NCBI GenBank assembly: GCA_963717935.1
Contig: CAVQXP010000004.1
Coordinates: 1,856,001 to 1,920,000 of the forward strand
From: Candidatus Eiseniibacteriota bacterium
GTDB lineage: Bacteria; Eisenbacteria; RBG-16-71-46
Length of the DNA: 64,000 nt
Reading direction: 5' to 3'
The notes under the pieces are model-generated. The model ran no database searches. It was not told the origin of the DNA and saw nothing but the letters and a program-made list of their open reading frames with translations. The translations under genes were made by a program, and so were the position numbers. Shown in pieces: positions 12,267 through 31,284 of this stretch. How positions within the stretch are numbered: position 1 is the first letter of the stretch; each line of letters starts with the position of its first letter.

Positions 12267-13801
12267 ATGGCCAAGCTCGTCGAATGCGTCCCGAACTTCT
12301 CGGAAGGCCGCCGCCGCGAGGTGGTGGAGGAGATCATGCAGGCCATCGCGTCCGTTCCCGGCGTCACGCTGCTCGACAGCGAGATGGACGCGGACCACAA
12401 CCGCTCCGTGCTCACCTTCGCGGGCGAGCCCGATCCGGTGATGGAGGCGGCGTTCCGCGCGGTGAAGCGCGGCAGCGAGCTGATCGACCTGACCCAGCAC
12501 CGGGGCGAGCACCCGCGCATGGGCGCGGCCGACGTGGTGCCGTTCGTGCCGGTCGAGGGCCTGACGCTCGAGGACTGCGCCGAGCTGGCGCGGCAGGACC
12601 GGGAAGCGGATCGGCGAGGAGCTGGGCATCCCGGTGTTCCTCTACGAGGCGGCGGCCACGCGGCCGGACCGCGTGACCCTCGCGGACGTGCGGCGCGGCG
12701 AGTTCGAGGGGCTGCGCGAGCGGATCGGCAAGGACCCGACGAGCAAGCCCGACTTCGGCCCCGAGCGCATCCACGCGACCGCGGGTGCCACCGCCGTGGG
12801 GGCCCGGCGCTTCCTGGTCGCCTTCAACGCCAACCTGAACACGCCCGACCTGCGCGTGGCCAAGGCCATCGCGGCGTCGATCCGCGAGCAGAGCGGGGGC
12901 CTCAAGAACGTGCGGGCGCTCGGCTTCTCGATCGAGGGCGGACGGCGGGCGCAGGTGAGCATGAACCTGGTGAACACCGAGGCCACGCCCATCCACCGCG
13001 TACTGGCGCTGGTGCGCGAGGAGGCGGCGCGGCACGGCGCAGCCATCTCGGGCTGCGAGGTCGTGGGGCTGGTGCCCGAGTACGCGATGCTCGACGCGGC
13101 CGAGCACTACCTGCAGCTCGAGAGCTTCAGGCGCGATCAGGTGCTGGAGCTGCGCCTCAAGGCGCCGCCGCTCACCGAGGCGACCTCGGTGGCGTCGTTC
13201 TTCGACTCGGTCGCCTCGCCGACGCCCACGCCGGGCGGGGGCACGGTCTCGGCCTTCGTCGGGGCGCTGGCCGCGACTCTGCCGGCCATGGTGGCCGGTC
13301 TCACGCTGGGGAAGAAGAAGTACGCCGCGCACGAGGAGGCCATGAAGGAGGTGCGGCGCAAGGCCGCGGGGCTGCGGGGGCGGCTGCTGGGGCTGGCGCG
13401 CAAGGACAGCGAGGCCTTCGAGGCGGTGCTGCGGGCCCGGAAGTTGTCCGCAGGCCAGCCCGGCCGACGCCGAGGCGCGGGAAAAGGCCATGGCGGCGGC
13501 GGACTTGGAGTCGATGCGGGTGCCACTCGAGACGGCCCAGGCCTGTCTCGAGGTGCTCGAGCTGGCTGCCGAGGTCGCGGAGAAGGGCAACGTCAACGCC
13601 GCCAGCGACTCGGGCGTGGCGGGGTTGCTGGCCCACGCCGCGGCAGAGGGCGCGCTGCTCAACGTGGAAATCAACCTGAAGTCCGCCGGGCAATCCGCCG
13701 ATAAAACCGACATCGAGATGGGCCTGCAACGCATCCGGACGGCACTAGGCCCGGCGGCTCGGCGCTGCCAGGATGCCGTGCATGCCGCCTTGAGCGCTTG
13801 A
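12267..13801 (+). CDS. ftcD: Bifunctional glutamate formiminotransferase / formiminoTHF cyclodeaminase; frameshifted
   Basis: ECVPNFSEGR, DADHNRSV, GEHPRMGAADVVPF, QVSMNL, then cyclodeaminase PTPGGG and GNVNAASD. Shifts near 12597 and 13450. Confidence 0.9.
13677..13705 (+). promoter_or_regulatory. sigma28 (FliA/WhiG)-like promoter inside the ftcD 3' end, upstream of the TPR gene
   Basis: TGAAG(13677-81)-N15-GCCGATAAA(13697-705). Confidence 0.55.
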
Positions 13802-13876
13802 CAGGGACTGCGTCATGGCGGGAGGGCTGCTGCCTTCGGGACCGGTGCGGCAGCATGCTCCGCGGAGAAAGCCAGC

Positions 13877-15889
13877 TTGGAAAAGGCGATCGACATCAAG
13901 CGACGGGCACAGCGTTGTTTCCAGAGCGGCGATCTGGATGGCGCCCTAAGCGAGTACGAGAAGCTCACCCGTGTTGAGGACGCCGAACCCATCAACATGG
14001 TCCTCATGGCGGACCTCCTGTACAAGAAGGAGGATCTTGCCGAGGCGTCCCGGCGTTACCTGCAGGCGGTAGGCGCCTACACGGAGACAGGGCTCTACAA
14101 GAACGCCATCGCGGTCTGCAAGAAGATGGCGCGGCTGTCGCTGTCCCTGACCGTCGTGCTGCAGCGGCTCGCCGAACTCCACCTGCTCGATGGGCTGAGC
14201 ACCGAGGCGGCGCTCTACTACCAGGAATACGCCGAGCACCTGGCGCGCGAGGAGGACTTCCGCGGGGCCGCCGCCAGTCTGCGCAAGGCTTTCGAGGCCT
14301 CGCCCGAGAACCCCCGGTTGCTCGAAAGGGCGGCCGAGTGGCTGCTGCAGGTGGGGGATGCCGCAGCGGCGGCGGCCTTGCTGATCGAGGCGTCGCGCCA
14401 TTTCACGCGGCGGGGACAGTCCGGTGACGCGGCGCGTGCGCAGGCGCGGGCAGGGGAGTTGGCGCCGGGCGCTGCCGCGACGCAGGAGGCGCAGGAGGCG
14501 CGGGTGGACGCCGAGGCCGCCGCAGTGCAGGAGGCGCAGGTGGACGCCGGGGCCGCCGAGGCGCAGGAGACGCAGGTGGCCGCCGAGACCACCGAGGCGC
14601 AGGAGGCGCGGGTGGACGCCGAGGCCGCCGAGGCGCAGGAGGCGCAGGTGGACGCCGCGCCCGCCGAGGCGCAGGAGGCGCAGGAGACGCAGGTGGACGC
14701 CGAGGCCGCCGAAGCGCAGGAGGCGCAGGTGGACGCCGAGGAGACCGCCGCAGCCGTGACCCCGGTCCTGGCTGCGGAGCCCCCTGCCGAGTTCGTGCCG
14801 GAGGCGGCGCCCCCGCCCATGGAGGATCTCGTGAGCGGCCTCGAGTCACGACCCACGTTCGAGAGCCCACCCGTGGGGGACGTGCCACCCGAGGAGGCTC
14901 CTGCGGGCGTGACGCCCCCGGTGCCCGGCGGTCTGCGCTTCGAGCCGGCCTCCGCGACGGGGAGCTCGATGACGCCGGAGATGTCGGACGTCGAGGACCT
15001 GCTGCGCCGGGCGGCGGATCGCTTCAAGGAGGGGGAGCAGGATCTGGCGGCCGATGCGCTGATCGAGGCGGCCCGGGCCTACGAGTCGCTCGACCGGCTG
15101 GAGAGTGCCGCTGCCATCTACCGCAGCCTGGGCCGCAGCACTCACGCCACGCCCGAGGTGCTGGGCCTGTGGCTCAGGAACTGTGAGCTGCGCCGCGAGG
15201 GCCGCGAGGCGGCCGAGGTGGCCTGCGGGCTCGGCGACTGTGCGTTGAACGACGGCGACCTGGAGCGTGCGCGCGAGTGGTTCGTGCGCGCCGTGGGGCA
15301 CGTCCCCGACCACGAGTTGGCCACCCGCCGGCTCCAGAGGCTGGGACAGCGTGCGGCTGAAGTCGCCCCCGCGGCCAAGAACGACCCGCCGGGCGCGATC
15401 ACGGGATCCGACGGCCGGGTCGAGGTGGCGGTCGGTCGCGCGCAGGCCGTGACTCTCGACCTGGGCTCGGTGATCGCGGAGTTCCAGCGCGGGGTCGAGT
15501 CCCAGCTTTCGGGTGATGCCCAGAGCCATTACGATCTGGGCATGACCTACCGCGAGATGGGACTGCTCGAACAGGCCGTGGAGTGTTTCCGCACCGCGGC
15601 GCTGGATTCCGCCTTCGGTCAGCGCTCGGCCGAGATGATCGGCCGTTGCCTGCTCGACCAGGGGCGTTTCGACGACGCGGCTGCGGAGTTCGCGCGCGCG
15701 CTGGAGGGCCTCGGGGATTCGTCCGAGGCGGGCGTGTGCCTGCACTTCCAGCTCGGGCTGGCGCACGAGGTCGCGGGCCACCTGCCCGAAGCGCTGGCCG
15801 AGTTCGAGCGCGTCTACGCGGTGCAGCCCAACTACCCGGATGTGGCGCAGAAGCTCCGCCTCCTGCGCAGGGCACCGGAGCGAGTCTGA
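13877..15889 (+). CDS. Tetratricopeptide-repeat protein with acidic repeat linker (SgmX-like architecture)
   Basis: N-terminal TPR array (KNAIAVCKKM), acidic linker, C-terminal TPRs DAQSHYDLGMTYREMGLLEQAVECF and PNYPDVAQKL; TTG start. Confidence 0.8.
   Translation: MEKAIDIKRRAQRCFQSGDLDGALSEYEKLTRVEDAEPINMVLMADLLYKKEDLAEASRRYLQAVGAYTETGLYKNAIAVCKKMARLSLSLTVVLQRLAELHLLDGLSTEAALYYQEYAEHLAREEDFRGAAASLRKAFEASPENPRLLERAAEWLLQVGDAAAAAALLIEASRHFTRRGQSGDAARAQARAGELAPGAAATQEAQEARVDAEAAAVQEAQVDAGAAEAQETQVAAETTEAQEARVDAEAAEAQEAQVDAAPAEAQEAQETQVDAEAAEAQEAQVDAEETAAAVTPVLAAEPPAEFVPEAAPPPMEDLVSGLESRPTFESPPVGDVPPEEAPAGVTPPVPGGLRFEPASATGSSMTPEMSDVEDLLRRAADRFKEGEQDLAADALIEAARAYESLDRLESAAAIYRSLGRSTHATPEVLGLWLRNCELRREGREAAEVACGLGDCALNDGDLERAREWFVRAVGHVPDHELATRRLQRLGQRAAEVAPAAKNDPPGAITGSDGRVEVAVGRAQAVTLDLGSVIAEFQRGVESQLSGDAQSHYDLGMTYREMGLLEQAVECFRTAALDSAFGQRSAEMIGRCLLDQGRFDDAAAEFARALEGLGDSSEAGVCLHFQLGLAHEVAGHLPEALAEFERVYAVQPNYPDVAQKLRLLRRAPERV
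14486..14746 (+). repeat. Coding tandem repeat, 7 x 36 bp (EAQEAQVDAEAA)
   Basis: Consensus gaggcgcaggaggcgcaggtggacgccgaggccgcc; unit 6 has an extra 9-bp gaggcgcag. Confidence 0.9.
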
Positions 15890-16734
15890 TGCACCGGCCG
15901 CCTGAGCCCGGAGGCGGTCGCCGCGTCGATCTCCACGCACACACCCTCTTCAGCGACGGCGTGCTCACGCCCGAAGCGGTCGTGACGCACGCCCTGGAGC
16001 GCTCGCTGGCCGCACTCGCCATCACCGACCACGACTCGGTCGAGGGCGTGGAGCGCGCGCGGATCGCGGCGGGGACGGCCCTCGAACTGGTGCCGGGGAT
16101 CGAGGTCTCGTCCACGCTGGACGGCGCCGACCTGCACATCCTGGGCTACTACCTCGACCCCGGGGACGAAGAGTTGGCGGACTCGCTGGGGCGCTTCCGC
16201 GAGGAACGGCTGCGGCGCGCTCAGTCCATGGTCGAGCGCCTGCGCGCCCTGGGCGTGCCGGTGGACCTCGATGAGGTCGTCGAGCTGGCGGGGCCGGGTG
16301 TGGTGGGCCGCCCGCATGTCGCCGAGGCGCTCGTGCGCGCCGGGCACGTCGAGACGGTGGACGAGGCGTTCCGGCGCTTCATCGGGGCGCGGGGCGAGGC
16401 GTTCGTGCAACGGCCCGCGTTTCGTCCCGAGGACGCCATCGCGCTGATCCACGCGGCGGGCGGTGTGAGCGTGCTGGCTCATCCGGGGGCGTCGTTGTCC
16501 GACCTGGTGGTGGAGCAGTTGGCCGCGGCGGGACTGCGCGGCATCGAGGTCTGGCACCCCCAGCACGGTGCGGCGGCGGTGCGGCGCTTCCACGCCCTGG
16601 CGCGGCGCCTCGATCTGCTGGAGACGGGTGGCTCGGACTACCACGGGTGGCCGCGAGGAGCGGCACTGGGTGAGTTGCCGGTGCCGGCGAGCGTGCTCGG
16701 CCCGCTCAAGCAGGCGGCCGGCGTTCCGGGTTGA
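15889..16734 (+). CDS. PHP-domain phosphoesterase (YciV/TrpH-like)
   Basis: DLHAHTLFSDG, AITDHD, GIEVS, HILGY, GRPHVA, LAHP, TGGSDYHG. Confidence 0.92.
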   Translation: MHRPPEPGGGRRVDLHAHTLFSDGVLTPEAVVTHALERSLAALAITDHDSVEGVERARIAAGTALELVPGIEVSSTLDGADLHILGYYLDPGDEELADSLGRFREERLRRAQSMVERLRALGVPVDLDEVVELAGPGVVGRPHVAEALVRAGHVETVDEAFRRFIGARGEAFVQRPAFRPEDAIALIHAAGGVSVLAHPGASLSDLVVEQLAAAGLRGIEVWHPQHGAAAVRRFHALARRLDLLETGGSDYHGWPRGAALGELPVPASVLGPLKQAAGVPG

Positions 16735-16767
16735 GCGTCCCGCCGGGCTCCGCCCGCCGCCGTTCCG

Positions 16768-16797
16768 TTGACTTGCGCGCGCGGGTGACCTTACTCT
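16768..16797 (+). promoter_or_regulatory. sigma70-like promoter of the ECF S-component gene
   Basis: TTGACT-N18-TACTCT, 12 nt before ATG 16810. Confidence 0.5.
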
Positions 16798-16809
16798 GCG
16801 CGTGCCCTC

Positions 16810-17382
16810 ATGAACGACCTCCCGCCTTCCGCGGAGCCTGCGATCGCGCGACCGCTGCTCACGTCCCGCCGCCTTGCGTACATGGCGCTGCTCGTGGCTG
16901 TCTGCCTTGCGGGGGCGTATGCGCCACGCCCGCCGGACTTCGAGGTGCAGACCCTCGGGATCTTCGGGGCCGGCGTGCTGCTCGGGGCCCGCGACGGCGC
17001 TCTGGTGGGGGGGCTCACGATGCTGGTGTACTCGCTGCTGAACCCCTACGGGCCGGCCCATCCGCTCGTGACCCTGGCTCAGGTGCTCGGCCAGGTGCCG
17101 GCCGGGTTCGCAGGGGGGATCTTTGCGGCACTGGGGCTGCAGGGGCGTCCCGTGGCCGTGCGCGGCGTCGTGCTCGTGGGGCTGGCGCTGGTGCTCACCC
17201 TCTGGTTCGACCTGGTGACCAACGTGGCGACCGGTCTGGTCTTCGGCCAGATGCGCGTCGTCCTCCTGCAGGGGATCCCATTCGCGTTATGGCACACCGG
17301 CTCCAACGTGCTGCTCTTCGTGCTGCTCGGTACGCCGCTCGTGGCGGTGTTCGGGCGCTATCGGGCGCGGCTCTCCTCCTGA
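16810..17382 (+). CDS. ECF transporter S-component-like membrane protein
   Basis: 190 aa, about 6 hydrophobic segments, PDFEVQTLGIFGAG, YSLLNPYG, GIPFALWHTGSN. Confidence 0.7.
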   Translation: MNDLPPSAEPAIARPLLTSRRLAYMALLVAVCLAGAYAPRPPDFEVQTLGIFGAGVLLGARDGALVGGLTMLVYSLLNPYGPAHPLVTLAQVLGQVPAGFAGGIFAALGLQGRPVAVRGVVLVGLALVLTLWFDLVTNVATGLVFGQMRVVLLQGIPFALWHTGSNVLLFVLLGTPLVAVFGRYRARLSS

Positions 17383-19093
17383 CGCTCGGCGCGCCCGCGG
17401 CGCGTGGGCAGGCCCCGGAGGCCGGGGCCGCCGCGCTCGCGGGTTCGGGGCTGTTGGATGCGGTCTCGTGGTGGGGCGAGCCGGGACGCGCCGGCTGGCT
17501 GCCCGGGGCCTGGCTCGGCATGGCGCCCCCCTCCTCACTGGCCGGGTTGGCGCTGGGGGGCTGGCACCTCGAGGAGCCGGGCCGCGCGCCGGCCTCCACG
17601 CCGTGGCCGGGTGTCTGCCAGGCCCGCTCACCGCTCGCCTGGTACGACTCCCTCGAAGTGCGGGGGACGGGCGGGGGGCGTTCGCCGGATTCGGCGGGGC
17701 GATCGCCGGCCTGCGCGGGCACACGCCGGTCGCGGAGCGGCGGGCGCGGGCCACGTTCTCCCTCGTCAACGGCTCGGGGGGGCTCGACGGGAACGCCCTC
17801 ACCCTGGTCAGGGGGGACTCGCTGCGGGGCTTCGGTGTGGACGTGGCGAACGGGAAGTGCGGTGCGACGGGGGGGCTTCAACTTGCCGGCCGTCACCAGT
17901 GGGGCGCGCACGCGAACCTGACGCGGGGGCGTCATGAATTCCAGGCGAGCGTCGCTCAGCGTGGTGCCGCGACACAACTCGTGGGCCTGGAGGAGCAGTC
18001 GGCCTCCGGGCAGAGCGGGGCGGCGGCGTGGCGCTGGCAACGCGGTGGGACCGGCTGGACGGCAGCGTTCTCGCGAGGGCTGGACCGGCACGAGAGCTTC
18101 GGTGGTCTGCTCGCGTACTCGCAGCGGGAGGCGCAGGAGACCCGTCTGACGGCGGGCTTCGGGCAGGCGCGCGACGGGCGTGAGCTGAACGCGCGGGCGG
18201 AGTGGACCGAAGGCTCGGTCAAGCGCTTCGGGAGCGGGGCGTTCTCGCGGGAGTGCCGCGGGCTCTGGGGCGCGGTCCGCGTGAAGCTGCCCGCGAGTGG
18301 CGGCCGGCTGGATCTCGCCCTGGGCATGGGCCGCCACGGGGGAGTGGACCGCTTCGAGGTGGCGCCCAGCGCGGAGTTCCAGGTCCGCTCCCGCGGGCTT
18401 GACGCCGCGCTCGGGCTCGAGCGCGTGCTCACGCCCGTGTGGGCGGATCTCGCGCCGGGGACGGAGCCGTTCCTGCAGCACGCCTGGATCGGTACGATGA
18501 GGCTCGCGACCGCGCGGCCCGGAGGCTGGCGCGCGCGTGCCTCGCTGCGGGCGGGGCGTGTCTATTCGCGCGCGCTCCTGGAGCGGTTGCCGCTCGAGGA
18601 TCTGTGGTTGCGCCGTGGGCTGCGCCCCGAGTGCGGGACCTACGACCTCGCGCTCGCCGAGGGTGGGCTCGAGTGGGAGGGGCGGTGTGCCGGCGCGGGC
18701 GTGGAGGGCTTCGGGCTCGCGCACCGCAGCAGGGCCGCGCCAGGTGGCGCCGCGCGTGTCCCCGGCGTGGACCCCGACGTTGGTTGCCGGGCGTGGGTGG
18801 GTGGCCGCACCACGCTCTTCGGCGGTGACCTCGGCGTGGGACTGCGTGGCGAGGCCGCGGGCGTGGGGGTGCGTGAGGCGCAGGTCGAGCCGCTGCGCCG
18901 CCTGCCCGCGTTCGTGACCTTTGCGCTGGTCGGGCAGGTGACGCTGCTGCACGACGCGGTGATCGTGCTGCGGGCGCGCAATCTCGAGGATCGCCCGCGC
19001 GCGCAGCTCTGGACCGATTCGGCGACCGGGTTGCCCGCGGTCACGGAGGGCCGCAACCTGACCCTGAGCTTCGTGTGGAGGCTGTTCAACTGA
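17289..19093 (+). CDS. Outer-membrane beta-barrel, degenerate TonB-dependent-receptor-like; frameshift ~17672
   Basis: Signal peptide MAHRLQRAALRAARYAARGGVRALSGAALLLTLGAPAARG, plug-like LAWYDSLEVRG..AFAGFGGAIAG, alternating beta-strands, RNLEDR and C-terminal LSFVWRLFN. Confidence 0.55.
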
Positions 19094-19170
19094 ACCGGGT
19101 CCCGTGAGCGGACGGGGCCGGCGAAGGCCCCGCCCGGAACGGGAACCGCACGCGCCCCCGCGGAGATCGG

Positions 19171-19629
19171 ATGCCCGCCTGGACGCCGGCGGAGCGGCGC
19201 GGCGCGCTGCTGGTGGCGCTGTTGCTCTCGCTGGGTGCGACGCGTGACCTGTGGCGCGCGACGCATCCGCGGACGCCCCCCCCGCCGCCGGCGACGGCGG
19301 ACGGTTCCGGCGGCCGCCCGGCGGCCGGCGTGGCTACCCGAGTGGAGCGGCCCGGCCCGGTGCCGGGGGAAGCCGCGCCGGCTGTGGACCTCAACCAGGC
19401 GGGGCTCGCCGAGTTGGACGCCCTGCCCGGCATCGGGCCCGTGCTCGCCGGGCGCATCCTGGAGCACCGCAACGCCCACGGCCCGTTCCGGGAGCCGGAG
19501 GACCTGCTCGCGGTGCCCGGCATCGGGCCGCGCCTCCTCGAGCGTCTTCGTCCCCGGATCCGTGTCGGCTCCCCCGCGACCGCAGAAACCGGGTCCGGCG
19601 CGCGTCCGGCCGGCCCGCCCCGGCCCTGA
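19171..19629 (+). CDS. comEA: ComEA-family helix-hairpin-helix DNA-binding protein
   Basis: N-terminal TM (WTPAERRGALL), VDLNQA..ELDALPGIGPVLAGRI..HR...GPF...DLLAVPGIG. Confidence 0.9.
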   Translation: MPAWTPAERRGALLVALLLSLGATRDLWRATHPRTPPPPPATADGSGGRPAAGVATRVERPGPVPGEAAPAVDLNQAGLAELDALPGIGPVLAGRILEHRNAHGPFREPEDLLAVPGIGPRLLERLRPRIRVGSPATAETGSGARPAGPPRP

Positions 19630-19680
19630 GGACGTTGCATTCGGCATGACCGCCCCCGCTTTCCGCGTGTGGATTCCGGT

Positions 19681-19709
19681 TCAGGAGGACGGGGAGACCG
19701 GCCGATAAC
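19681..19709 (+). promoter_or_regulatory. sigma28-like promoter upstream of pilB
   Basis: TCAGG(19681-85)-N15-GCCGATAAC(19701-09). Confidence 0.65.
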
Positions 19710-19878: not shown

Positions 19879-21573
19879 GTGCAGGAAGACATCGGACAGC
19901 TGCTTCTCGCAGCCCAGCTGATCGACGAGGACGTGCTCAACAAGGCCTCGCTTCAGCAGAAGAGCACGGGCGGGAGCCTGACCGGCAACCTGGTCAAGAT
20001 CGGCGCGCTCAGCGAAGACGCGCTCCTCGAGTTCCTTGCGCGGCACTACGGCACGCCCGCGTTCGATCTGAAGACCTTCGTGCCCGACCCCGCGCTCACG
20101 CGGCTCATCCCGGGGGACATCGCCACCCGGTTCATGGCGCTGCCCGTCTCCCGCAGCGGGCGGCGGCTGGTGGTCGCCATGGCGAACCCCACGAACATCT
20201 TCGCCATCGACGACATCAAGTTCATCACCGGCTACGAGGTCGAGCCGCAAGTCGCGACGGAAGCCGGGCTCAAGAAAGCCCTCGACCGCGCCTACGACTC
20301 GGCCGGCACGATGGCCGACGTGATGAAGGGCATCGAGGACGATCTGTCGGTCGTCGAGGAGGACGACAGCGCCGAGGTCGAAGCGGGGCTCTCGGCGGCC
20401 GACGAGGCGCCGATCGTCAAGCTCGTGAACTCGCTCATCGCCGATGCGGTGCGCAAGGGAGCCTCGGACATCCACGTCGAGCCCTACGAGCGGAGCATGC
20501 GGGTGCGCTTCCGCATCGACGGCGTGATGCAGGAGATGATGTCGCCGCCCTTCAAGTTCAAGGCGGCCATCCTCTCGCGGCTGAAGATCATGGCGGAGCT
20601 GGACATCGCGGAACGGCGCGTGCCGCAGGACGGTCGCATCAAGATCAAGGTGATGAACCGCACCATCGACCTGCGCGTCTCGTCGTTGCCGACGATCTTC
20701 GGCGAGAAGATCGTGATGCGAATCCTGGACAAGGCGAACCTCAACATCGACCTGGAGAAGCTCGGCTTCGAGCCGGCCTCGATGAAGGAGTTCGTCTCGG
20801 CGATCGCCAACCCCTACGGCATGGTGCTGGTGACGGGGCCCACCGGGTCCGGCAAGACCACCACGCTTTACTCGGCGCTCTCGCGCGTGAACACGCCCGA
20901 GGTCAACGTGATGACCGCCGAGGACCCGGTCGAGTACAACCTGGACGGCATCAACCAGGTGCTGGTGCACGAGGACATCGGGCTCACCTTCTCCGCGGCG
21001 CTCAAGGCGTTCCTGCGGCAGGACCCCAACATCATCATGGTGGGCGAGATCCGCGACCTGGACACGGGCTCGATCGCGGTCAAGGCGGCGCTCACGGGCC
21101 ACCTGGTGCTCTCCACGCTGCACACCAACGACGCGCCGAGCGCGATCGGCCGCCTGATCGACATGGGAGTCGAGCCGTTCCTGGTGGCGTCGTCGGTCAA
21201 TCTGATCCTGGCCCAGCGCCTGGTGCGCAAGGTGTGCAGTGGCTGCAAGGCTCCCCTGACGCTCAGCGCGGAGGTGTTGCACGAGCTGCAGCTCACGCCC
21301 GAGCAGGCCGCGAAGGCTTCGTTCGTCGAAGGCCAGGGGTGTGTGGACTGCAACAACACCGGCTACCGCGGGCGCCAGGGCGTGTACGAGGTGATGCCGA
21401 TGACGCCGGCGATCCGCGAACTGGTGCTGGAGCGGGCGTCGGCCAACGAGATCAAGCGGGTGGCCATCGAGCAGGGCATGCTGACCCTGCGCCGGGATGC
21501 GCTGGAGAAGCTCAAGCGCGGCATGACCACGGTCGAGGAAGTGCTCAAGGAGACGGCGGCGGACCAGTTCTAG
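19879..21573 (+). CDS. pilB: Type IVa pilus assembly ATPase
   Basis: GASDIHVEP, PQDGR, GPTGSGKTTT, EDPVEY, LRQDPNIIMVGEIRD, STLHTN, Zn tetracysteine CSGC/CVDC. Confidence 0.96.
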   Translation: MQEDIGQLLLAAQLIDEDVLNKASLQQKSTGGSLTGNLVKIGALSEDALLEFLARHYGTPAFDLKTFVPDPALTRLIPGDIATRFMALPVSRSGRRLVVAMANPTNIFAIDDIKFITGYEVEPQVATEAGLKKALDRAYDSAGTMADVMKGIEDDLSVVEEDDSAEVEAGLSAADEAPIVKLVNSLIADAVRKGASDIHVEPYERSMRVRFRIDGVMQEMMSPPFKFKAAILSRLKIMAELDIAERRVPQDGRIKIKVMNRTIDLRVSSLPTIFGEKIVMRILDKANLNIDLEKLGFEPASMKEFVSAIANPYGMVLVTGPTGSGKTTTLYSALSRVNTPEVNVMTAEDPVEYNLDGINQVLVHEDIGLTFSAALKAFLRQDPNIIMVGEIRDLDTGSIAVKAALTGHLVLSTLHTNDAPSAIGRLIDMGVEPFLVASSVNLILAQRLVRKVCSGCKAPLTLSAEVLHELQLTPEQAAKASFVEGQGCVDCNNTGYRGRQGVYEVMPMTPAIRELVLERASANEIKRVAIEQGMLTLRRDALEKLKRGMTTVEEVLKETAADQF

Positions 21574-22749: not shown

Positions 22750-22758
22750 GAGGATCCC

Positions 22759-23982
22759 ATGCCTGTCTTCGTGTGGAAGGGACGTACGCTCGCGGGTGAG
22801 GCGCAGAGCGGAGAGATCGAGGTCGGGCGCCAGGACGAGGCCGTCGATCTGCTGCGCAAGAAGAAGATCCTGGTCACCTCGATGCGGCCCAAGAGCGGCG
22901 GCTTCAAGCTGCCGAAGTTCGGCGGCTCCGGCGTGACGACCAAGGACCTCGCCATCTTCACGCGCCAGTTCGCCACCATGATCTCGGCCGGTCTGCCGCT
23001 GGTCCAGTGCCTCGACATCCTGGCCAAGCAGGCCAGCAAGCCCTCGTTCGGCCGGGTGATCGGGGAGGTCACGCGCGAGGTCGAGGCCGGCGCGACGCTG
23101 GCGGATGCGCTGGGCAAGCACAAGACTCGTCTTCGACGACCTGTTCCGCAACATGGTGGCCGCGGGCGAGGCCGGCGGCGTGCTGGACGAGATCCTCATG
23201 CGCCTCGCCACGTACATCGAGAAGGCGGACGCCCTGAAGCGCAAGATCCAGGGCGCGATGGTCTACCCGGCGGTGGTGCTCTCGGTGTGCGTCGGGGCCG
23301 CGGCCTTCATGCTGATCTTCATCATCCCGACCTTCGCCAAGATGTTCACCGATTTCGGCGGTGAGCTGCCGCTGCCCACCAAGGTCGTGCTGATGCTGTC
23401 CGAGCGGCCTGCAGAGCTTCTGGTGGGTGATCGTGCTGGCCGTGGTCGGCTCGGTGATCGCGCTATCAAGCGCTACTACGCCACCGAGGCAGGCCACCGG
23501 AACATCGACGCGACGATGCTGCGCGTGCCGGTGCTGGGCGACGTCCTGCTGAAGGGCGCCGTGGCGCGCTTCACGCGCACGCTCGGCACCCTCATCGCCT
23601 CGGGCGTGCCGATCCTGGCGGGCCTGGAGATCACGGCGCGCACGGCGGGCAACCGGATCATCTCCGAGGCCATCATGACGGCGCGGGCGTCGATCCGCGA
23701 GGGCGAGACGGTGTCGGCGCCGCTGAAGACATCGGGAGTGTTCCCGCCGATGGTGGTGCAGATGATCTCGGTGGGCGAGCAGACCGGCGCGCTCGACGAG
23801 ATGCTCACGAAGATCGCCGTCTTCTACGAGGCCGAGGTGGACACGGCGGTGGACGACCCTGACCTCCGATCATCGAGCCGGTCATGATCGTGATGATGGG
23901 CGGCATGGTGGGCGGCATGGTCGTCGCCATGTACCTGCCCATGTTCAAGCTCATCAGCGTGGTCGCGGGCGGCGCCAACTGA
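22759..23982 (+). CDS. pilC: Type IV pilus inner-membrane platform protein; frameshifted
   Basis: FTRQFATMISAGLPL, AGEAGG, YPAVV, RFTRTL, VGEQTG, AMYLPMF. Confidence 0.93.
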
Positions 23983-25691
23983 TGAGGAACCCGTTCCCGC
24001 ACGAGACGGCTGACCCGGGCGCCACGCGCGCCGCGCGGCAGCCCGTGTCCGGCCCTGCGGGCCGGGCGCAGGCGCGCGCGCGTGGGCTCATGACCCTGGT
24101 CTGGGGCCGGCTCGTGGTGGCGGCGCTCGCGCTGCCGCTGGGCCTGCTGCTGCGCCCGGACGCCACCGGAGGCGATGCGCATCGCGGTCACCGGGTCGGC
24201 GGCGGCGATCGTGGTGATCTCGGTGCTCTTCGGGCTCGCGGCGCGCACGCGACGGGCGCTTGCGCTGCAGGCCTTCGCGCAACTGGCCGCGGACCTCGCG
24301 TTGGTGACGGCGCTGGCGGCCTACACCGGTGGAAGAGGGAGCCAGTTCGTACTCTTCTATGTGCTGGTGGTGATCACGGGCGGTCTGCTGGCCCGGCTCC
24401 CGGGCGGGCTGTTCGCCGCCGCGGGTGCCGGTGGCGCGTACGTGCTCCTGCCGACGCTCGTCGCGCGGGTGGACTCGTCCTGGGCGACCGCCGTCGAGCC
24501 GGTGCTCCCGACCGGCATGCTGCTCGCCTTCGTCGCCATCGTGGGTGTGCTGGCCGGCGTGCTGGGGCGGCGTGTGCGCGCGGCGCACGATGACCTGGAG
24601 CGCACCACGCGCGAGCTGGACCGCGTGCGCGTGGACAACGACGTCATCCTGCGGCACCTCGCGACCGGCGTGCTCACGGTGGATGCCTGGGGCATGGTCG
24701 CGTACCTGAACCCGGCCGCCGAGCAGGTGCTGGGACTGCGCACCGCGGAGCTGCGCGGCCGGACGCTGCAGGAGGCGCTGCCGGAGCGGCTCGGTCTGCT
24801 GCGCGACCTCGTGCAGGAGACGCTGGCCCGCGGCGAACCGCGGCTGCGCGCCGAATTGACCGCGCACTCGGCCGCGAACCACGAGCTGGTGCTGGGTGTG
24901 ACGACCAACCTGCTGCGCCACGAGGGCGTGGTGACGGGCGTGGTCGCGGTCTTCCAGGACCTGACCGAGGTGCGCGCCATGGAGCGGCGCGCGCGCCGCA
25001 ACGAGACCCTGGCCGAGGTGGGCGCGCTGGCGGCCGGGATCGCGCACGAGCTGCGCAACGGGCTCAAGCCGATCAGCGGCTCGGTGGAGTTCCTGCAGCG
25101 CGAACTCAAGCCCGAGGGCGAGAGCGCCGTGCTCATGAGCCTCATCACGCGGGAGTGCGGGCGGCTGAACCGGTTCGTGAGCGACCTGCTGAGCTACGCC
25201 CGCGAGCGCGACCTGGTGCCTGGAGCCGCTCGACCTCGACGAGCACATGGGCGAGTTGCGGGACGGACTGCGGCGCGACCCGCGCTGCAGCGCCGGACGT
25301 CCGGATCGACTTCGAGCCGCCCGGCGTGAGCGTACGCCTGCGGGGCGACCGCGAGCAGCTCCGGCAGGTCTGGCTGAACCTGGTCAACAACGCGCTGGAC
25401 GCGATGACCGGCAGCGGCGCCCTGACGGTGCGCTGGCGGCCGGCGGGCGACGGGCGGGCGGTCGTGGAATTCGAGGACCAGGGAGTCGGCATCGCTCCCG
25501 AAGTCCTGCCGCGCGTCGGCGAGCCGTTCTTCACCACCAAGCAGGAAGGCACCGGGCTGGGTGTGGCGATGGCCCAGCGCATCGTGGAGCGGCACGGCGG
25601 CACGCTTGCGTTCGAGAGCGCGCCGGGCCGTGGCACGATCGTCCGGGTGAGCCTGCCTGTGGAAGTCAAAATCCTAGCGGAAGCCGCTTGA
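23982..25691 (+). CDS. pilS: Membrane sensor histidine kinase PilS; frameshifted
   Basis: Multiple TM segments (YTGGRGSQF), PAS, AHELRN, QVWLNLVNNA, DQGVG, FFTTK, GTGLG. Confidence 0.88.
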
Positions 25692-25726
25692 GAGACCGTG
25701 AACACCCCCCTGGAGAGGTGAACGAC

Positions 25727-27136
25727 ATGCCCACGGAGAAGATCCTGGTCGTAGACGACGAGCAGAGCATGACCCAGTTCCTGGGCATCGTGCTGCGCAA
25801 GGAAGGCTACCAGGTGACGTCCACCAATAGTGGCAAGGACGCGCTGGAGAAGGTCCGTGGCGAGAGCTTCGACGCCGTCATCACCGACATCCGCATGCCC
25901 GGGATGGACGGTATCCAGCTCCTGGAGGGGATCAAGAAGATCGACCCCACGCTGCCGGTCGTGATCATGACCGCATACGCGTCCCAGCAGTCGGCCATCG
26001 ACGCCGTGAACCTGGGCGCCTTCCAGTACCTCATCAAGAACGCGAAGAACGACGAGATCAAGCTGGTGGTGCGCAACGCCATCGAGATGCGGCGGGTGCG
26101 CAGCGAGAACCAGTATCTCAAGCGGGAGCTCAAGAAGGGACACGAGGAGAAGGTCATCATCGGCACCTCCGACGAGATGGTGCGCGTCTTCAAGATGGTG
26201 GAGAAGGTGGCCGACAGCGAGGCCACCATCATGATCCAGGGCGAGAGCGGCACCGGCAAGGAGCTCATCGCGCGCGAGATCCACTACAGCAGCCGGCGCG
26301 CCGGCGGCCCGTTCGTGAGCATCAACTGCGGCGCCATCCCGCGCGACCTGCTCGAGAGCAACCTGTTCGGGCACGTCAAGGGCTCCTTCACCGGCGCGGT
26401 GCGTGATTCCGCCGGCCTCTTCCAGGTCGCCGAGGGCGGCACGTTCTTCCTCGACGAGGTGGGGGAGATGCCGTCGGCCACGCAGGTCAAGCTGCTGCGG
26501 GCGCTCCAGGAGCGGGAGATCATCCCGGTCGGCGGCACCCAGCCGATCAAGATCGACTGCCGGCTCGTGGCCGCGACCAACGCCGACCTCGAGAAGGAGG
26601 TCGCCGAGGGGCGCTTCCGCGCCGACCTCTTCTACCGGCTCAACGTGATCCCCATCAAGCTGCCGCACCTGCGACAGCGCCGCGACGACATCCCGCTGCT
26701 GGTGGACCACTTCCTCAAGCGCTACGCGCTGAACAACCCGGCCAAGACCGTGAACCCGGAGGCCATGGAGCTGCTGATGAAGTACGACTGGCCCGGGAAC
26801 GTGCGCGAGCTCGAGAACGTCATGGAGCGTGCGCTCATCCTGGACGAGGGCGGGGTCATCGGGCCGGACGACCTGCCCGACAAGCTCCGCTTCGGCGCCG
26901 CCCACCGGGGCAGCCTCATCATCGACTCGCCGACGCTGACGCTCGAGGAGCTCGAGAAGGAGTACATCCTCAAGGTGCTCAGCTACACGCGCTGGCAGAA
27001 GAAGAAGGCCAGCGACCTGCTCGGGATCAATGCCTCGACGCTGTATCGCAAGCTGATCGCCTACGGGGTGGAGCGGGCGAGCGCCGAGGGGGATGACGAA
27101 GCCGAGTCGCGGGAGCCCCAGGCGCACGCCGCGTGA
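25727..27136 (+). CDS. pilR: sigma54-dependent (NtrC-family) response regulator PilR
   Basis: REC (VVDDE, TDIRMP), GESGTGKE, GSFTGA, FLDEVG, WPGNVREL, C-terminal HTH. Confidence 0.92.
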   Translation: MPTEKILVVDDEQSMTQFLGIVLRKEGYQVTSTNSGKDALEKVRGESFDAVITDIRMPGMDGIQLLEGIKKIDPTLPVVIMTAYASQQSAIDAVNLGAFQYLIKNAKNDEIKLVVRNAIEMRRVRSENQYLKRELKKGHEEKVIIGTSDEMVRVFKMVEKVADSEATIMIQGESGTGKELIAREIHYSSRRAGGPFVSINCGAIPRDLLESNLFGHVKGSFTGAVRDSAGLFQVAEGGTFFLDEVGEMPSATQVKLLRALQEREIIPVGGTQPIKIDCRLVAATNADLEKEVAEGRFRADLFYRLNVIPIKLPHLRQRRDDIPLLVDHFLKRYALNNPAKTVNPEAMELLMKYDWPGNVRELENVMERALILDEGGVIGPDDLPDKLRFGAAHRGSLIIDSPTLTLEELEKEYILKVLSYTRWQKKKASDLLGINASTLYRKLIAYGVERASAEGDDEAESREPQAHAA

Positions 27137-27311: not shown

Positions 27312-27326
27312 TGGCACGACGGTTGC
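27312..27326 (+). promoter_or_regulatory. sigma54 -24/-12 promoter of the pilin gene
   Basis: TGGCAC-GACGG-TTGC, exact consensus spacing, between pilR and pilA. Confidence 0.88.
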
Positions 27327-27400
27327 TCGACTACCCGGTCGAGGGTCCAAGAGCCAACGCGACGGGCGACCCGAGGACTCAACCAGGAGGAGTGCCAGAC

Positions 27401-27841
27401 ATGTTCCGGTCCCAGAAAGGCTTCACCCTGATCGAGCTGATGATCGTGGTCGTCATCATCGGCATCCTTGCGGCGATCGCGATCCCGAACTTCATCGCGA
27501 TGCAGAACCGCGCCAAGGAAGGCAGCATCAAGGCCAACATGCACACCCTGCAGCTCGCCGCCGAGGACTACGGCGTCCGCAACGACGGCGTGTACTCGGC
27601 GACGATGACCGTCGGCACGGCGGCCACGGACTTCCAGCTCCCGGCGCAACTTCAAGAACCCGTTCGACGGCCTCACGACCTCGGGCCACGCGTGGGAAGA
27701 CCGGGCGGTCTTCACGGCAGCCGGCTTCGGCCGCCGTCTGGCATCACGAGCTACGGCGACTCGGCGACTGCGACCTACAACATCAAGGGCTACGGCAAGG
27801 ACGCGGCGCTCACGCTCCTGGTGCTGACCGCCGGGCAGTAG
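27401..27841 (+). CDS. pilA: Type IVa pilin (probable major pilin); internal compensating frameshifts
   Basis: RBS AGGAGG; MFRSQKG|FTLIELMIVVVIIGILAAIAIPNF. An alternative frame at ~27648-27725 reads NFKNPFDGLTTSGHAWEDR, matching the paralogue. Confidence 0.92.
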   Translation: MFRSQKGFTLIELMIVVVIIGILAAIAIPNFIAMQNRAKEGSIKANMHTLQLAAEDYGVRNDGVYSATMTVGTAATDFQLPAQLQEPVRRPHDLGPRVGRPGGLHGSRLRPPSGITSYGDSATATYNIKGYGKDAALTLLVLTAGQ

Positions 27842-27861
27842 TCGGTCCAGATCCAGCGAAA

Positions 27862-27891
27862 CGCGGGGGTGGGAGATGTCCCGCCCCCGCG
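27862..27891 (+). terminator. Hairpin between the two pilin genes
   Basis: CGCGGGGGTGGGA-gatg-TCCCGCCCCCGCG followed by CCTTC. Confidence 0.65.
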
Positions 27892-27961
27892 CCTTCGCGG
27901 CAGGGACGGCGCGAAGGGAGTTGCGCGGCCCCGTTGCCCGCGGAGACCTCGAGAGGATCCC

Positions 27962-28391
27962 ATGAGGCGTGACGGCGGCTTCACCCTCGATCGAGCTGAT
28001 GATCGTGGTCGTCGTGATCGGCATCCTGGCTGCGGTCGCGATCCCGAACTTCATCACGATGCAGGCGCGCTCCAGGGAGGCGGGCGTGAAGGCCAACATG
28101 CACACCTTCCAGCTCTCCGCCGAGGACTACGGCGTGCTGAACAACGGGTACTACCCGTCGAACGCGTCGGTGGTCGTGCCCCTCATGCCCGGGGGCGACG
28201 CCAACTTCAAGAACAGCTTCACCGGCTTGACGGGCAGCGGCGTCGCCTGGGAGGACCGGGGCACGTACGATGCGCCGGCGAGCACCATCCCGGGGATCAC
28301 GAGCTACTCGGACTCGAACAACTTCACCTACAACGTGAAGGGCCACGGGAAGACCAGCCCGATCTCGATCATCCTCACCTCCGGATACTGA
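27962..28391 (+). CDS. Second type IVa pilin, paralogue of pilA; frameshift ~27989
   Basis: MRRDGG|FTL/IELMIVVVVIGILAAVAIPNF...KANMHTFQLSAEDYG...NFKNSF...AWEDR...GITSY. Confidence 0.88.
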
Positions 28392-28544: not shown

Positions 28545-28560
28545 CGGCACGCGCGTTGCA
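28545..28560 (+). promoter_or_regulatory. sigma54 promoter upstream of the pilin-associated ABC system
   Basis: CGGCAC-GCGCG-TTGCA. Confidence 0.7.
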
Positions 28561-28650
28561 ACCGGGGACGCCCCGGAGGATCGGCCGCGAGGCGCGATCG
28601 GCCGGATCCTGATGGCGCAAGGGGTTGGCCCCGGTGGAGGGAATCGGGAC

Positions 28651-29685
28651 GTGAGCGGAAACAGGCAGACTTCGGCCGCCTCGATCGCAGACCGGCAAGC
28701 GACTGGCCGGTCGACCGAGGTGCAGGCTGGAAGGGACCCCGGCCTGGCCGTCTGCGCCCGTGGTCTTGCGAAGCACTACGTGCACCCGTGGACACTCCGG
28801 GTGACGCGCGGGCTCGACGCGCTGGACCTCGACGTGCGCCGCGGCGAGGTGATGGGCCTGCTCGGTCCCAACGGTGCCGGGCAAGACCACCACGCTCAAG
28901 CTCCTCACGGGCCTGCTGAAGCCCACGCGCGGGCAGGCCTGGCTGATGGGCGAGCCGGTCGAGAGCACGGCTTCGCGCCGCGAGCCTCGGCTTCCTGCCC
29001 GAGCAGCCCTACTTCTACGACTACCTGAACGGCCTCGAGTATCTCGAACTGGCCGCGCGGCTCTCGGGCCTGGCGGCTGCGGTCGCCGCGCGAGCGGGCG
29101 CGCCACTGGCTCGGCCGGGTCGGGCTGGACGAGCGTCCGCGCCTGGGGCTGCGCAAGTACTCGAAGGGCATGCTGCAGCGCCTGGGGCTGGCGGCAGCGC
29201 TGGTGCACGACCCCGAGCTGCTCATCCTGGACGAGCCCATGAGCGGGCTCGACCCGTTCGGCCGTCGCGACGTGCGCGACCTCATCACCGAGCAGCGCGA
29301 GCGCGGCGTGACCGTGCTGTTCTCGTCGCACATCCTGCCGGACGTCGAGATGCTGTGCGACCGGGTGGCCATCATGATCGGTGGCCGCCTGACGCGAGTG
29401 GCCACGGTAGGCGAGCTGGTGGAGGACGGGACGCAGGCCGTCGAGATCCGCTGTGCGCCGGGCGCGTTGCTCGAGATCCCGCGGCACTGGTCGGGCCTGG
29501 TCTCGCGCACCCAGCGCGCCGACGAGTCGGTCTTCCGGTTCGAGGATGAGGCGCGACTGGCCGACGTGCTGGACTGGCTGCTCCGGGCGGGCGTGCAGGT
29601 GCGTGCCGTGACGCCGCAGCGGCCGACGCTCGAGTCGCTCTTCATGGCCGCCGCCGAGGCCGAGCGCGTGCGGAGGAGCGCATGA
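28651..29685 (+). CDS. ABC transporter ATP-binding protein (Myxococcus PilH-like); frameshifted
   Basis: [33 protein letters not shown]. Confidence 0.88.
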
Positions 29686-30447
29686 TCCCGCTGCTGATCG
29701 CGCACAACACGTTCCGCGAGGCCACGCGGGACCGCGTGGTGGCCGGGGTCGTCGTGGCCGGACTGGCGCTGCTCGCGCTGACGCAGGTGGCGAGTCCGCT
29801 CGCGCTGGGCGAGGGCGGACGGCTCACGGTGGACCTCGGGCTGCTCGGGCATCTCGATCCTCGGCCTGCTCGTCATCCTGCTCACCGGGACGAGTCTGGT
29901 CGCGAAGGAGGTCGAGCGGCGCACCATCTACAACCTGCTCTCGCGCCCGATCACGCGACCCGCCTACCTGGTGGGCAAGTGGGCGGGGCTCTCGGCGGCG
30001 CTGTGGACCGTGGCGCTGCTGCTCGGGCTGGCGCTGTGGGGCGTGCTGGGGACGCGCGGCCTGGCCGGGCACGGCGCGGCGGTGCTGCAGGGGGTCTACC
30101 TGGCCGGGCTCGAGCTCAGCGTGATCACGGCGCTGGCCGTGATGTTCTCGGCGCTCTCGACTCCGGTGCTCTCGGCGCTCTACACGCTGGGCTTCTACGT
30201 GGTGGGGCAGTGGAGCTACGACCTCCGCCTGCTGGCCGAGAAGCTCCCGAAGGATCTCGGATGGCTGCTGGCGGCGACTGCGAACCTGGTCCCGAATCTG
30301 CCGCTGTTCAACATGCGTACGCTCGCCGCGGAGGGACATCCCACGACCTGGCTGCACCTCGCGCTGGCCTCCGGCTACGCCGTGGTCTACGTGGCCTGCG
30401 CGCTGTGCCTGGCCACGGCCGCCTTCGAGTCGAAGGACTTCAAGTGA
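29682..30447 (+). CDS. ABC-2 type permease (Myxococcus PilI-like); frameshift ~29845
   Basis: [39 protein letters not shown]. Confidence 0.85.
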
Positions 30448-31207
30448 GTCCGCTGGCTGCGCTGGACTCGCGCCGGCGCCGCTTCCTCACGGCCTGGGCG
30501 GCTGCCCTCGTGCTCGGAACGGGGGTGTTCACGCTGGCGTCCGCCGCATGGCGGACCGTGCCGCATCCGCAGCCGCTCGAGGAATTGTCGTACTACCCGT
30601 CCGGGCGGTTCCTCGAGCCGGCGACGCTCGGGCATGCCGCGACCGCGGCCGACCTGGCGTGGCTGCGTGCGGTGCAGTACTACGGGCAGCACCGCATCAC
30701 GGACAACCAGTTCGTGCGGATGGGGCACGTGTTCGACATCCTCACCGCGCTCGATCCCGGGTTCGTGCCGGCGTACGTCTTCGGTGCCTTCGCCCTGGCC
30801 CAGGAGGGCCGGGACTTCCCTGCGGCCGAACGGCTCATGCGGAAGGGACTCGCGGCCAATCCGACGAGTGGCGAGCTGGCGTTCCAGCTTGGCTTCCTCT
30901 ACTACGTGCGCCCGGGCGGGCGGGACCTGCGTGCGCGCAGCCGAGTGCTTCGAACAGGCCGCGCGGCAGCCGGACGGGCCGCCCGCAGTCGGCCCGGTTC
31001 GCGGCCTTCGCCCGGCAGAACGCGGGGGATCTGGCGGTGGCCTACGAGCTGTGGTCCCAGGTCGAGCGCAACTCGCCCAACCTCTACCTGCGCGAGATCG
31101 CCCAGCGGGAGCGGGCCCGGATCCGCGAGGCGCTGGAACGCGGCCGCCGCGAGCAGGCCATGCGGCGCCTGACTACGCCGGCCGTGCTGTTCAAGAGGCG
31201 GCCGTGA
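30444..31207 (+). CDS. Membrane-anchored TPR-like accessory protein (Myxococcus PilG-like); frameshifted
   Basis: N-terminal TM, ADLAWLRAVQYYG, ALDPGF, GLAANP, LGFLYY. Confidence 0.7.
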
Positions 31208-31255
31208 GGCCCCCCCTGCGTCCCGGGGGGCCCGGAACGGGGCCCGAAAGGCGGC

Positions 31256-31284
31256 TCAAGGGACGGCCGCGGGCGACCGATAAC
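31256..31284 (+). promoter_or_regulatory. sigma28-like promoter upstream of pilM
   Basis: TCAAG(31256-60)-N15-ACCGATAAC(31276-84), just after a GC hairpin that follows the pilG-like gene. Confidence 0.65.

What the first reader, a model, noticed from the sequence alone, without database searches (positions are those of the whole stretch)
13677..31284. Three identically spaced sigma28-like promoters define a candidate pilus regulon
Seen: TGAAG-N15-GCCGATAAA (13677), TCAGG-N15-GCCGATAAC (19681) and TCAAG-N15-ACCGATAAC (31256). They lie about 170, 170 and 150 nt upstream of the TPR gene, pilB and pilM. They are the only CCGATA occurrences I found by eye on the + strand, and one is hidden inside the ftcD coding end. 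Established: GCCGATAA is the -10 element of FliA/WhiG (sigma28), normally used for late flagellar or sporulation genes. Inference: a sigma28-family factor drives the pilus machine and pilSR, and PilR-sigma54 then drives pilin and its ABC system. That is a sigma28 to sigma54 cascade, the reverse of the usual sigma54 to sigma28 flagellar order, possibly in a non-flagellated organism.
Basis: partly seen in the sequence, partly recalled or inferred. Interest (0 to 1): 0.82.

Follow-up and report, generated by a model that had tools for sequence, protein, structure and literature searches.

The report
Flagellar sigma factor wired to pili
Three conserved promoter-like sites show that, in an uncultured bacterium with no flagellar genes found, the sigma factor that normally finishes flagella likely switches on the pilus machine inside a predicted sigma54-sigma28-sigma54 loop; pilus control by this sigma family is known in Actinobacteria, but the loop was not found in print.

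Summary
The three motifs are real and conserved in relatives. The one inside ftcD fixes a rare Asp codon in 28 of 29 readable loci. The genome (Ca. Eisenbacteria, inferred) has one FliA/WhiG and rpoN; flagellin, FlhA, FliG and rod proteins were not found (93% complete). The sites belong to a regulon of about 30: the pilus machine, a second pilB- and pilT-type ATPase, a minor pilin, csrA plus an FlgM-like gene, c-di-GMP and kinase genes. A site also precedes lptC-lptB-rpoN in 23 of 23 family genomes. Sigma54 promoters precede pilin (28 of 30 loci). The 'reversed cascade' is wrong as stated: the fliA operon keeps a sigma54 promoter (65 of 65 loci). The likely wiring is sigma54 to sigma28 to PilR/sigma54, with feedback onto rpoN. 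Sigma28-driven pili are known in Rubrobacter and Actinoplanes; the nested loop was not found in print. The scan earlier noted the fliA locus on another contig of this genome and proposed the pilus link. No start site was mapped.

The parts
13677..13704 (+). sigma28-type promoter 1, embedded in the last codons of ftcD; predicted to drive TPR-PHP-ECF S-component-unknown-comEA genes
   Evidence: PWM >=12 in 29 of 30 loci; GCC GAT in 28 of 29 readable loci against GAT at 48 of 261 other ftcD Asp codons
12267..13801 (+). ftcD (formiminotransferase-cyclodeaminase), frameshifted in this assembly; hosts promoter 1
   Evidence: FTCD_C on 13490-13798; a related RNA contig lacks one base at 13448
13877..15889 (+). 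TPR protein, conserved next to the pil cluster; role in pili not shown
   Evidence: Pfam TPR; homolog in 33 of 41 genomes; Atlas hits are generic TPR clusters
15892..19629 (+). PHP-domain gene, ECF S-component, unknown 541-aa ORF, ComEA-like HhH gene
19681..19708 (+). sigma28-type promoter 2, before pilB
   Evidence: PWM >=12 in 13 of 30 loci, loose pattern in 18 of 30 against 0 of 30 reverse-complement; mostly limited to the own family
19879..23982 (+). pilB, pilT, pilC (pilC frameshifted in this assembly)
   Evidence: TIGR02538 and TIGR01420 over cut-off; T2SSF
23982..27136 (+). pilS (6TM_PilS-PAS-HisKA-HATPase, frameshifted) and pilR (REC-sigma54 activator-HTH); pilC stop overlaps the pilS start (TGATG)
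   Evidence: start codon within 3 nt of the pilC stop in 11 of 16 junctions read
27312..27327 (+). sigma54 -24/-12 promoter of the major pilin
   Evidence: present in 28 of 30 pilR loci, the 2 misses lacking downstream DNA
27401..28391 (+). two type IV pilin genes
   Evidence: N_methyl; weak PilA_Myxo hit; second pilin matched by tblastn with the first
28545..28560 (+). second sigma54-type site, before the pilus-linked ABC transporter genes
   Evidence: present before the ABC ATPase in 12 of 18 regions examined
28590..31172 (+). ABC ATPase, permease and a third gene (pilH/pilI/pilG-like arrangement, recalled from Myxococcus); 5' boundary approximate
31256..31283 (+). sigma28-type promoter 3, before pilM
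   Evidence: TCAAG-N14/15-xCCGA[TA] in 24 of 30 loci against 0 reverse-complement; loose pattern in 18 of 36 loci of distant families against 3 of 36
31436..35730 (+). pilM, pilN, pilO, pilP-like, pilQ secretin (3' boundary approximate)
   Evidence: one RNA-run contig spans 31338-35811

Best explanation
The three sites are conserved sigma28-type promoter motifs, likely read by the genome's single FliA/WhiG sigma factor, which would act as the middle tier of a three-tier loop that builds type IVa pili. Tier 1 (inferred): a sensor kinase and sigma54 activator, left from the old flagellar cluster, fire the sigma54 promoter of REC-sigma4-orfX-flhG-fliA. Tier 2 (motifs shown, transcription inferred): FliA opens the pilB-T-C-S-R, pilM-Q and TPR-comEA operons. 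It also opens accB-pilT/U-accC, a second PilB/GspE-type ATPase, a minor pilin cluster, an MglA-like GTPase, csrA plus an FlgM-like anti-sigma (negative feedback), HD/GGDEF and hybrid kinase genes, and lptC-lptB-rpoN (positive feedback, on top of a sigma70-like promoter). Tier 3 (motifs shown, PilR action inferred from Geobacter and Xanthomonas): PilR with sigma54 transcribes the pilins and the ABC genes. The machine would thus be made before its fibre subunit. FliA control of pilM seems older than flagellum loss.
For: Motif beyond chance outside the window. A PWM trained without the window sites gives 29 hits >=20 bits against 0-4 in 7 shifted-spacer controls; 21 of the 29 lie outside predicted coding DNA, which covers about 85% of the genome. 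Boxes are conserved with variable spacers at pilM, pilB and TPR, with synonymous constraint in ftcD. The motif fits the WhiG consensus XT(C/A)AX-16-GCCGA of PMC13595943; distant families show canonical TAAA at pilM. One FliA is over cut-off (244 against 190 bits); its best PDB hit is 6pfv. rpoN site: 23 of 23 own-family loci >=12 bits, 0 of 30 on the reverse strand. csrA 49 of 50, mglA-like 7 of 7; accB-pilT/U 24 of 29, second pilB 18 of 24. Sigma54 site before the fliA operon in 65 of 65 loci against 0 controls. FlgM-like gene: 13 of 27 members hit PF04316 weakly (best E 0.0023; the one score shown, 15.5 bits, is under the 25-bit cut-off). Complex model 0.64 against best control 0.01, contacts at least 93% agreed, partner pLDDT at least 73, interface on sigma region 4 (mark met by 116 of 157 solved and 2 of 215 mismatched pairs). 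That pass may come from likeness to the solved sigma28-FlgM complex, and the two chains came from different loci (L160, L146).
Against: No start site was mapped. RNA-run contigs of two runs cross promoter 1 from ftcD (13533-14385 and 12811-13908), so read-through may matter. rpoN also has a conserved sigma70-like promoter, and its sigma28 site is absent in 7 of 7 loci of family f3. The pilB site is weak or missing outside the own family. Wiring differs by lineage: in G025 and G029 pilM carries a sigma54 site and the ABC genes a sigma28 site. Families f10 and f12 keep FliA without FlhA yet show no pilM site (0 of 5, 0 of 4). G001, G007, G074 and G075 have pilM sites but no FliA match (drafts). 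The PWM was trained on G000 sites, including those of rpoN, csrA, pilT/U and the second pilB, and relatives are not independent. Which activator fires each sigma54 site is inferred from adjacency only.
Confidence: 0.72

Rival explanations
1. The sigma28 sites are real but only boost operons that are also transcribed by housekeeping promoters or read-through, so there is co-induction without an ordered hierarchy.
For: Sigma70-like TTGCGA-17-TAGCGT conserved before lptC-lptB-rpoN; RNA contigs cross ftcD into the TPR gene; site strength and presence vary by family.
Against: No strict sigma70 match in window 12000-31900 (weak test in a 71% GC genome). In one run a contig covering pilM-pilQ starts about 30 nt after promoter 3 (one study, and contigs cannot show starts).
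Confidence: 0.17
2. One reading: sigma28 sits on top and sigma54 below, reversing the flagellar order.
For: Sigma28 sites before pilB-pilSR and before rpoN; sigma54 sites before pilin.
Against: Sigma54 site before the fliA operon in G000 and 65 of 65 loci. No conserved sigma28 site between REC and fliA (>=12 bits in 9 of 65 loci, scattered). The kinase, activator, REC, flhG and fliA genes keep the order they have in the flagellar cluster of G025.
Confidence: 0.06
3. The motif is read by another sigma factor (the RpoS-like one or an ECF) or is a transcription-factor operator.
For: 13 sigma70-region-2 genes in G000; some -35 boxes read TGAAC; a search for sigma28 specificity residues found no paper, so they were not checked.
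Against: The -10 box equals the sigma28/WhiG box (PMC8325347). The geometry matches PMC13595943. The site precedes csrA and the FlgM-like gene in the fliA locus (49 of 50). One such site lies at the flagellin locus of G025.
Confidence: 0.04
4. Chance match, or, for site 1, a by-product of the FtcD protein sequence (NLK......AD).
For: CCGATA alone is not enriched; the codons for L-K and A-D-K supply most letters of site 1.
Against: 0 of 100 shuffles; 7 of 30 at one spacing outside the window; GAT in 28 of 28 Asp codons at the site against 18% elsewhere in ftcD.
Confidence: 0.01

Closest known systems
WhiG-RsiG control of type IV pili in Rubrobacter radiotolerans (PMC8325347; passages read)
   Same: A sigma28-family factor with three promoters in the pilus cluster and several before DGC/PDE genes, found by motif search; there confirmed by TSS mapping.
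   Different: Actinobacterium with a c-di-GMP anti-sigma (RsiG). Here: a diderm T4aP machine with PilQ, an FlgM-like small protein, PilSR/sigma54 on the pilin, and a site before rpoN. RsiG was not searched for.
WhiG/FliA regulons of Actinomycetota, including Actinoplanes (PMC13595943; passages and section 9 read)
   Same: Same promoter consensus (-35 XT(C/A)AX, 16 nt, -10 GCCGA); pilus and c-di-GMP targets; co-control of flagella and pili in Actinoplanes.
   Different: No sigma54 tier appears in the passages read.
PilSR-sigma54 control of pilA (Geobacter, PMC2725144, passages read; Xanthomonas RpoN2-PilRX, PMC7170775, listing only)
   Same: pilR directly upstream of pilA with a -24/-12 promoter; fliA operon under sigma54.
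   Different: No sigma28 control of the pilus machine, pilSR or rpoN in the passages read.
Flagellar regulators kept in non-flagellated Legionella (PMC5655016; passages read)
   Same: FliA, FlgM, FleN and FleSR retained without flagella.
   Different: No pilus regulon is assigned to FliA in the passages read.
SigJ/SigF cascade of Nostoc punctiforme (PMC6495340; passages read)
   Same: Machine genes (pilB-C, pilM-Q, pilT2) under one sigma factor and the major pilin under another, downstream one.
   Different: Different sigma factors and promoter (J-box); no sigma54.

Membership tests
sigma28 (FliA/WhiG) promoter | -10 GCCGATAA-type box | tested here: met
sigma28 (FliA/WhiG) promoter | -35 TAAA or T(C/A)A at fixed spacing | tested here: met
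   TCAAG-N15 fits XT(C/A)AX-16-GCCGA; spacing peak at 15; TAAA in families f7, f11, f13
sigma28 (FliA/WhiG) promoter | cognate FliA/WhiG gene in the genome | tested here: met
   TIGR02479 244.5 bits, cut-off 189.6; 116 of 121 phylum genomes
sigma28 (FliA/WhiG) promoter | FliA-dependent start just after the -10 box | not testable with these tools
   only assembled RNA contigs were available
Flagellar sigma54-to-sigma28 hierarchy | fliA operon under a sigma54 promoter with an adjacent activator | tested here: met
   65 of 65 loci; activator gene
Flagellar sigma54-to-sigma28 hierarchy | flagellar structural and export genes as targets | tested here: not met
   flagellin, FlhA, rod and FliG not found in G000, 93% complete
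FlgM anti-sigma28 | PF04316 match over cut-off | tested here: inconclusive
   13 of 27 weak hits, best E 0.0023; no meaningful PDB sequence hit
FlgM anti-sigma28 | binds sigma region 4 | tested here: inconclusive
   model 0.64 against control 0.01, on region 4; may reflect likeness to the solved complex
WhiG-RsiG c-di-GMP switch | RsiG anti-sigma with c-di-GMP motif | not tested
   no RsiG search made
PilSR-sigma54 pilin regulation | pilS-pilR upstream of pilA with a -24/-12 promoter | tested here: met
PilSR-sigma54 pilin regulation | PilR binding and activation | not testable with these tools
   inferred from PMC2725144

The most novel reading that the evidence does not exclude
Eisenbacteria run type IVa pili with the flagellar regulatory chassis as a closed loop. 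Sigma54 makes sigma28; sigma28 makes the pilus machine, PilSR and more sigma54 (rpoN); PilR-sigma54 then makes pilin. An FlgM-like brake, which cannot be exported through a flagellum, must be relieved some other way. Positive feedback through rpoN could make this a bistable switch into a piliated, surface-motile state.
Probability: 0.45. Interest if true: 0.68.

Novelty: new variant of a known kind. Interest (0 to 1): 0.52.

Why it matters
It gives a near-complete, testable regulatory diagram for surface motility in an uncultured phylum from sequence alone. It extends sigma28-controlled pili from Actinobacteria to a diderm T4aP system, and shows a sigma28 promoter on rpoN, which the paper searches (listings, with passages of two papers) did not turn up. 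It suggests why flagellar regulators can outlive flagella: they already served pili. It also raises the question of how an FlgM-like inhibitor is removed without an export apparatus. The ftcD site is a clean case of a promoter fixing codon choice.

Tried and rejected
CCGATA alone is not enriched. The sigma70 and terminator scan of 12000-31900 found nothing informative. RNA evidence: 16 runs listed, all as assembled contigs, best share 0.21. One contig starts near 31317 and spans pilM-pilQ, and one low-depth contig starts near 13726, but two others cross site 1; none can map a start. The cluster-member look-up could not be made. A paper search for sigma28 specificity residues found nothing, so residues were not checked. 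'Eisenbacteria + pili + flagell' gave one paper, on Gemmatimonadota, listing only. The Atlas search of the TPR protein gave only generic TPR clusters. No MglB/roadblock domain was found in G000, so 'MglA-like' rests on sequence resemblance recalled from memory plus a weak Arf hit. The first ftcD codon script had a wrong pattern and was redone. 'FliA was rewired to pili after flagellum loss' was rejected as the general story: flagellated families f9, f13 and f15 already carry the pilM site, and non-flagellated f10 and f12 lack it. No FliA tree was built; orthology rests on synteny and identity (58% to G025 FliA, 40% to the second FliA of G004). Supplements of the cited papers were not read; target tables there could hold further precedents.
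Full report
Observation. The three bipartite motifs are at 13677, 19681 and 31256 as stated, 170, 168 and 150 nt before the TPR gene, pilB and pilM. CCGATA alone is at chance level (6 found, 7.9 expected). The pairing is not: outside the window, 7 of 30 RCCGATAA boxes have T[CG]A[AG]G exactly 15 nt upstream, against at most 1 at any other spacing and about 0.1 expected. A PWM trained without the window sites gives 29 genome hits at 20 bits or more, against 0-4 in seven shifted-spacer controls. 21 of these 29 lie outside my crude coding mask, which covers 85% of the genome. The window sites score 23.8, 22.6 and 16.7.

Organism and sigma factor. Most records holding the closest FliA relatives are titled Ca. 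Eisenbacteria. G000 (93% complete) has one FliA/WhiG over cut-off, RpoD, an RpoS-like sigma, ten ECF-looking sigma genes (my reading of their sequences) and rpoN. Flagellin, FlhA, rod and FliG families were not found. Across 121 phylum genomes FliA was found in 116, pilM in 116 and FlhA in 41. The motif fits the WhiG consensus used in PMC13595943 and the -10 box given in PMC8325347. Distant families show the canonical TAAA -35 at pilM.

Conservation of the three sites. pilM: TCAAG-N14/15-xCCGA[TA] in 24 of 30 loci (best 30 of 36 matches, G000 included), 0 on the reverse strand; PWM >=12 in 18 of 30. In 36 loci picked from distant families a loose pattern gave 18 against 3 on the reverse strand. 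pilB: PWM >=12 in 13 of 30, loose pattern 18 of 30 against 0; one locus had only 65 nt upstream, and the site is mostly missing outside the own family. TPR/ftcD: PWM >=12 in 29 of 30; one locus lacked upstream DNA and in two the best site lay elsewhere. At codon level the site reads GCC GAT in 28 of 29 readable loci. Other Asp codons of the same ftcD frames are GAT in 48 of 261, and other Ala codons GCC in 774 of 1736. The promoter, not the protein, fixes the codons. Kin are not independent, so these counts are not significance tests.

The regulon is wider than the window. Sites precede accB-pilT/U-accC (24 of 29 loci >=12 bits, 1 of 30 dropped as too short), a second PilB/GspE-type ATPase with a c-di-GMP-binding motif (18 of 24, 1 of 25 dropped), a prepilin-like cluster, an MglA-like GTPase (7 of 7) and csrA with an FlgM-like gene (49 of 50). 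Others precede HEAT plus HD-domain pairs, a REC-GGDEF gene, several hybrid kinases, a FIST gene, and polysaccharide export and glycosyltransferase genes. This mix of pili and c-di-GMP genes parallels the Rubrobacter WhiG regulon. New here: a site precedes lptC-lptB-rpoN in 23 of 23 own-family loci and 0 of 7 loci of family f3, with 0 of 30 reverse-strand controls at 12 bits. A sigma70-like promoter lies downstream of it in both families.

The sigma54 tiers. A -24/-12 site lies before pilin in 28 of 30 pilR loci, the misses lacking DNA, and before the ABC genes in 12 of 18 regions. pilC overlaps pilS in G000, and a start codon follows within 3 nt in 11 of 16 junctions, so pilSR likely belongs to the pilB transcript. 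However, the operon REC-sigma4-orfX-flhG-fliA, next to a kinase and a sigma54 activator, has a -24/-12 site in G000 and 65 of 65 related loci, against 0 controls. The usual order is kept (as in Geobacter, PMC2725144); the system is a sandwich with feedback, not a reversal.

Brake. The 60-70 aa gene after csrA weakly matches FlgM (13 of 27 members, best E 0.0023). It models onto sigma region 4 at 0.64 against a best control of 0.01 (mark met by 116 of 157 solved and 2 of 215 mismatched pairs; contacts at least 93% agreed, partner pLDDT at least 73). The chains came from two different loci, and the pass may reflect likeness to the solved sigma28-FlgM complex. How it is removed without a flagellar export apparatus is open; an earlier scan note proposes the free sigma4 protein as a decoy, which I did not test.

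History. In flagellated G025 the same kinase, activator, REC, flhG, fliA and GGDEF genes flank and close a full flagellar cluster. The G000 locus therefore looks like that cluster with the structural genes deleted (inference from synteny). Flagellated members of the own family mostly have a second FliA; in G004 it is 40% identical and lies in a separate cluster with FlbT and FlaF. pilM sites occur in flagellated families f9, f13 and f15 (1 of 1, 5 of 5, 3 of 6) and are missing in non-flagellated f10 and f12 (0 of 5, 0 of 4). In G025 and G029 pilM has a sigma54 site and the ABC genes a sigma28 site. So sigma28 control of pil genes predates flagellum loss and is rewired by lineage. G001, G007, G074 and G075 have sites but no FliA match, possibly assembly gaps.

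RNA. Only assembled contigs were available. One contig spans pilM-pilQ and starts about 30 nt after site 3; two contigs cross site 1. Neither result maps a start.

Comparison and verdict. Sigma28-family control of type IV pili is known: Rubrobacter (TSS-mapped) and Actinoplanes. Retention of FliA without flagella is known in Legionella, and a machine-then-pilin sigma cascade in Nostoc. A sigma28 site on rpoN and the nested sigma54-sigma28-sigma54 loop did not appear in searches. Of these I saw listings, plus passages of PMC2725144 and PMC3930126; the library lacks most subscription papers. Verdict: real, a new variant of a known kind, interest 0.52. Shown: motifs, genes, conservation. Inferred: transcription, activator assignment, order and feedback.

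Noticed in passing
G000:C2:412685-412713 (L145, L226): Sigma28 site plus sigma70-like promoter before lptC-lptB-rpoN-hpf-hprK-PTS genes; no lptA was seen between lptC and lptB.
   Followed up: partly
G000:C4:1320497-1323200 (L285): A pilT/pilU-family ATPase gene is inserted between accB and accC, behind a conserved sigma28 site, coupling fatty-acid initiation genes to a pilus motor.
   Followed up: partly
G000:C4:1811980-1813990 (L287): Second PilB/GspE-type ATPase with an MshE-type c-di-GMP motif and a C-terminal double zinc ribbon; found in 16 of 24 family relatives but in 0 of 7 of the same genus.
   Followed up: partly
L272-L273 (G004:C1:1678000-1718000): Flagellated own-family genomes carry a second flagellar cluster type with its own FliA and with FlbT/FlaF, suggesting re-acquisition of flagella.
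   Followed up: partly
L398, L399 (G025, G029): Swapped wiring: sigma54 site before pilM and sigma28 site before the ABC genes; G025 also has a sigma28 site directly before pilR.
   Followed up: partly
L022:16271-16755: Free sigma region-4 protein and a conserved ~75 aa orfX (RLERLG...RYW motif) between REC and flhG in most fliA loci; orfX has no Pfam match.
   Followed up: no
G000:C4:368404(-) and 639485(-): Two paralogous HEAT-repeat plus HD-domain gene pairs, and two DUF6982-like genes (C1:173936; C4:1224442), each behind a sigma28 site.
   Followed up: no
window 14480-14760: Imperfect AEAQEAQVD-like repeats in the TPR protein linker, which differ in length from a related RNA contig.
   Followed up: no
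window 12000-36000: Many single-base frameshifts (ftcD, pilC, pilS, pilins, ABC, pilQ) that related contigs lack: probably long-read errors, not pseudogenes.
   Followed up: partly
window 47247: Another sigma54-like site (TGGCA-N7-TGC) near an ORF start at 47222 on the + strand.
   Followed up: no
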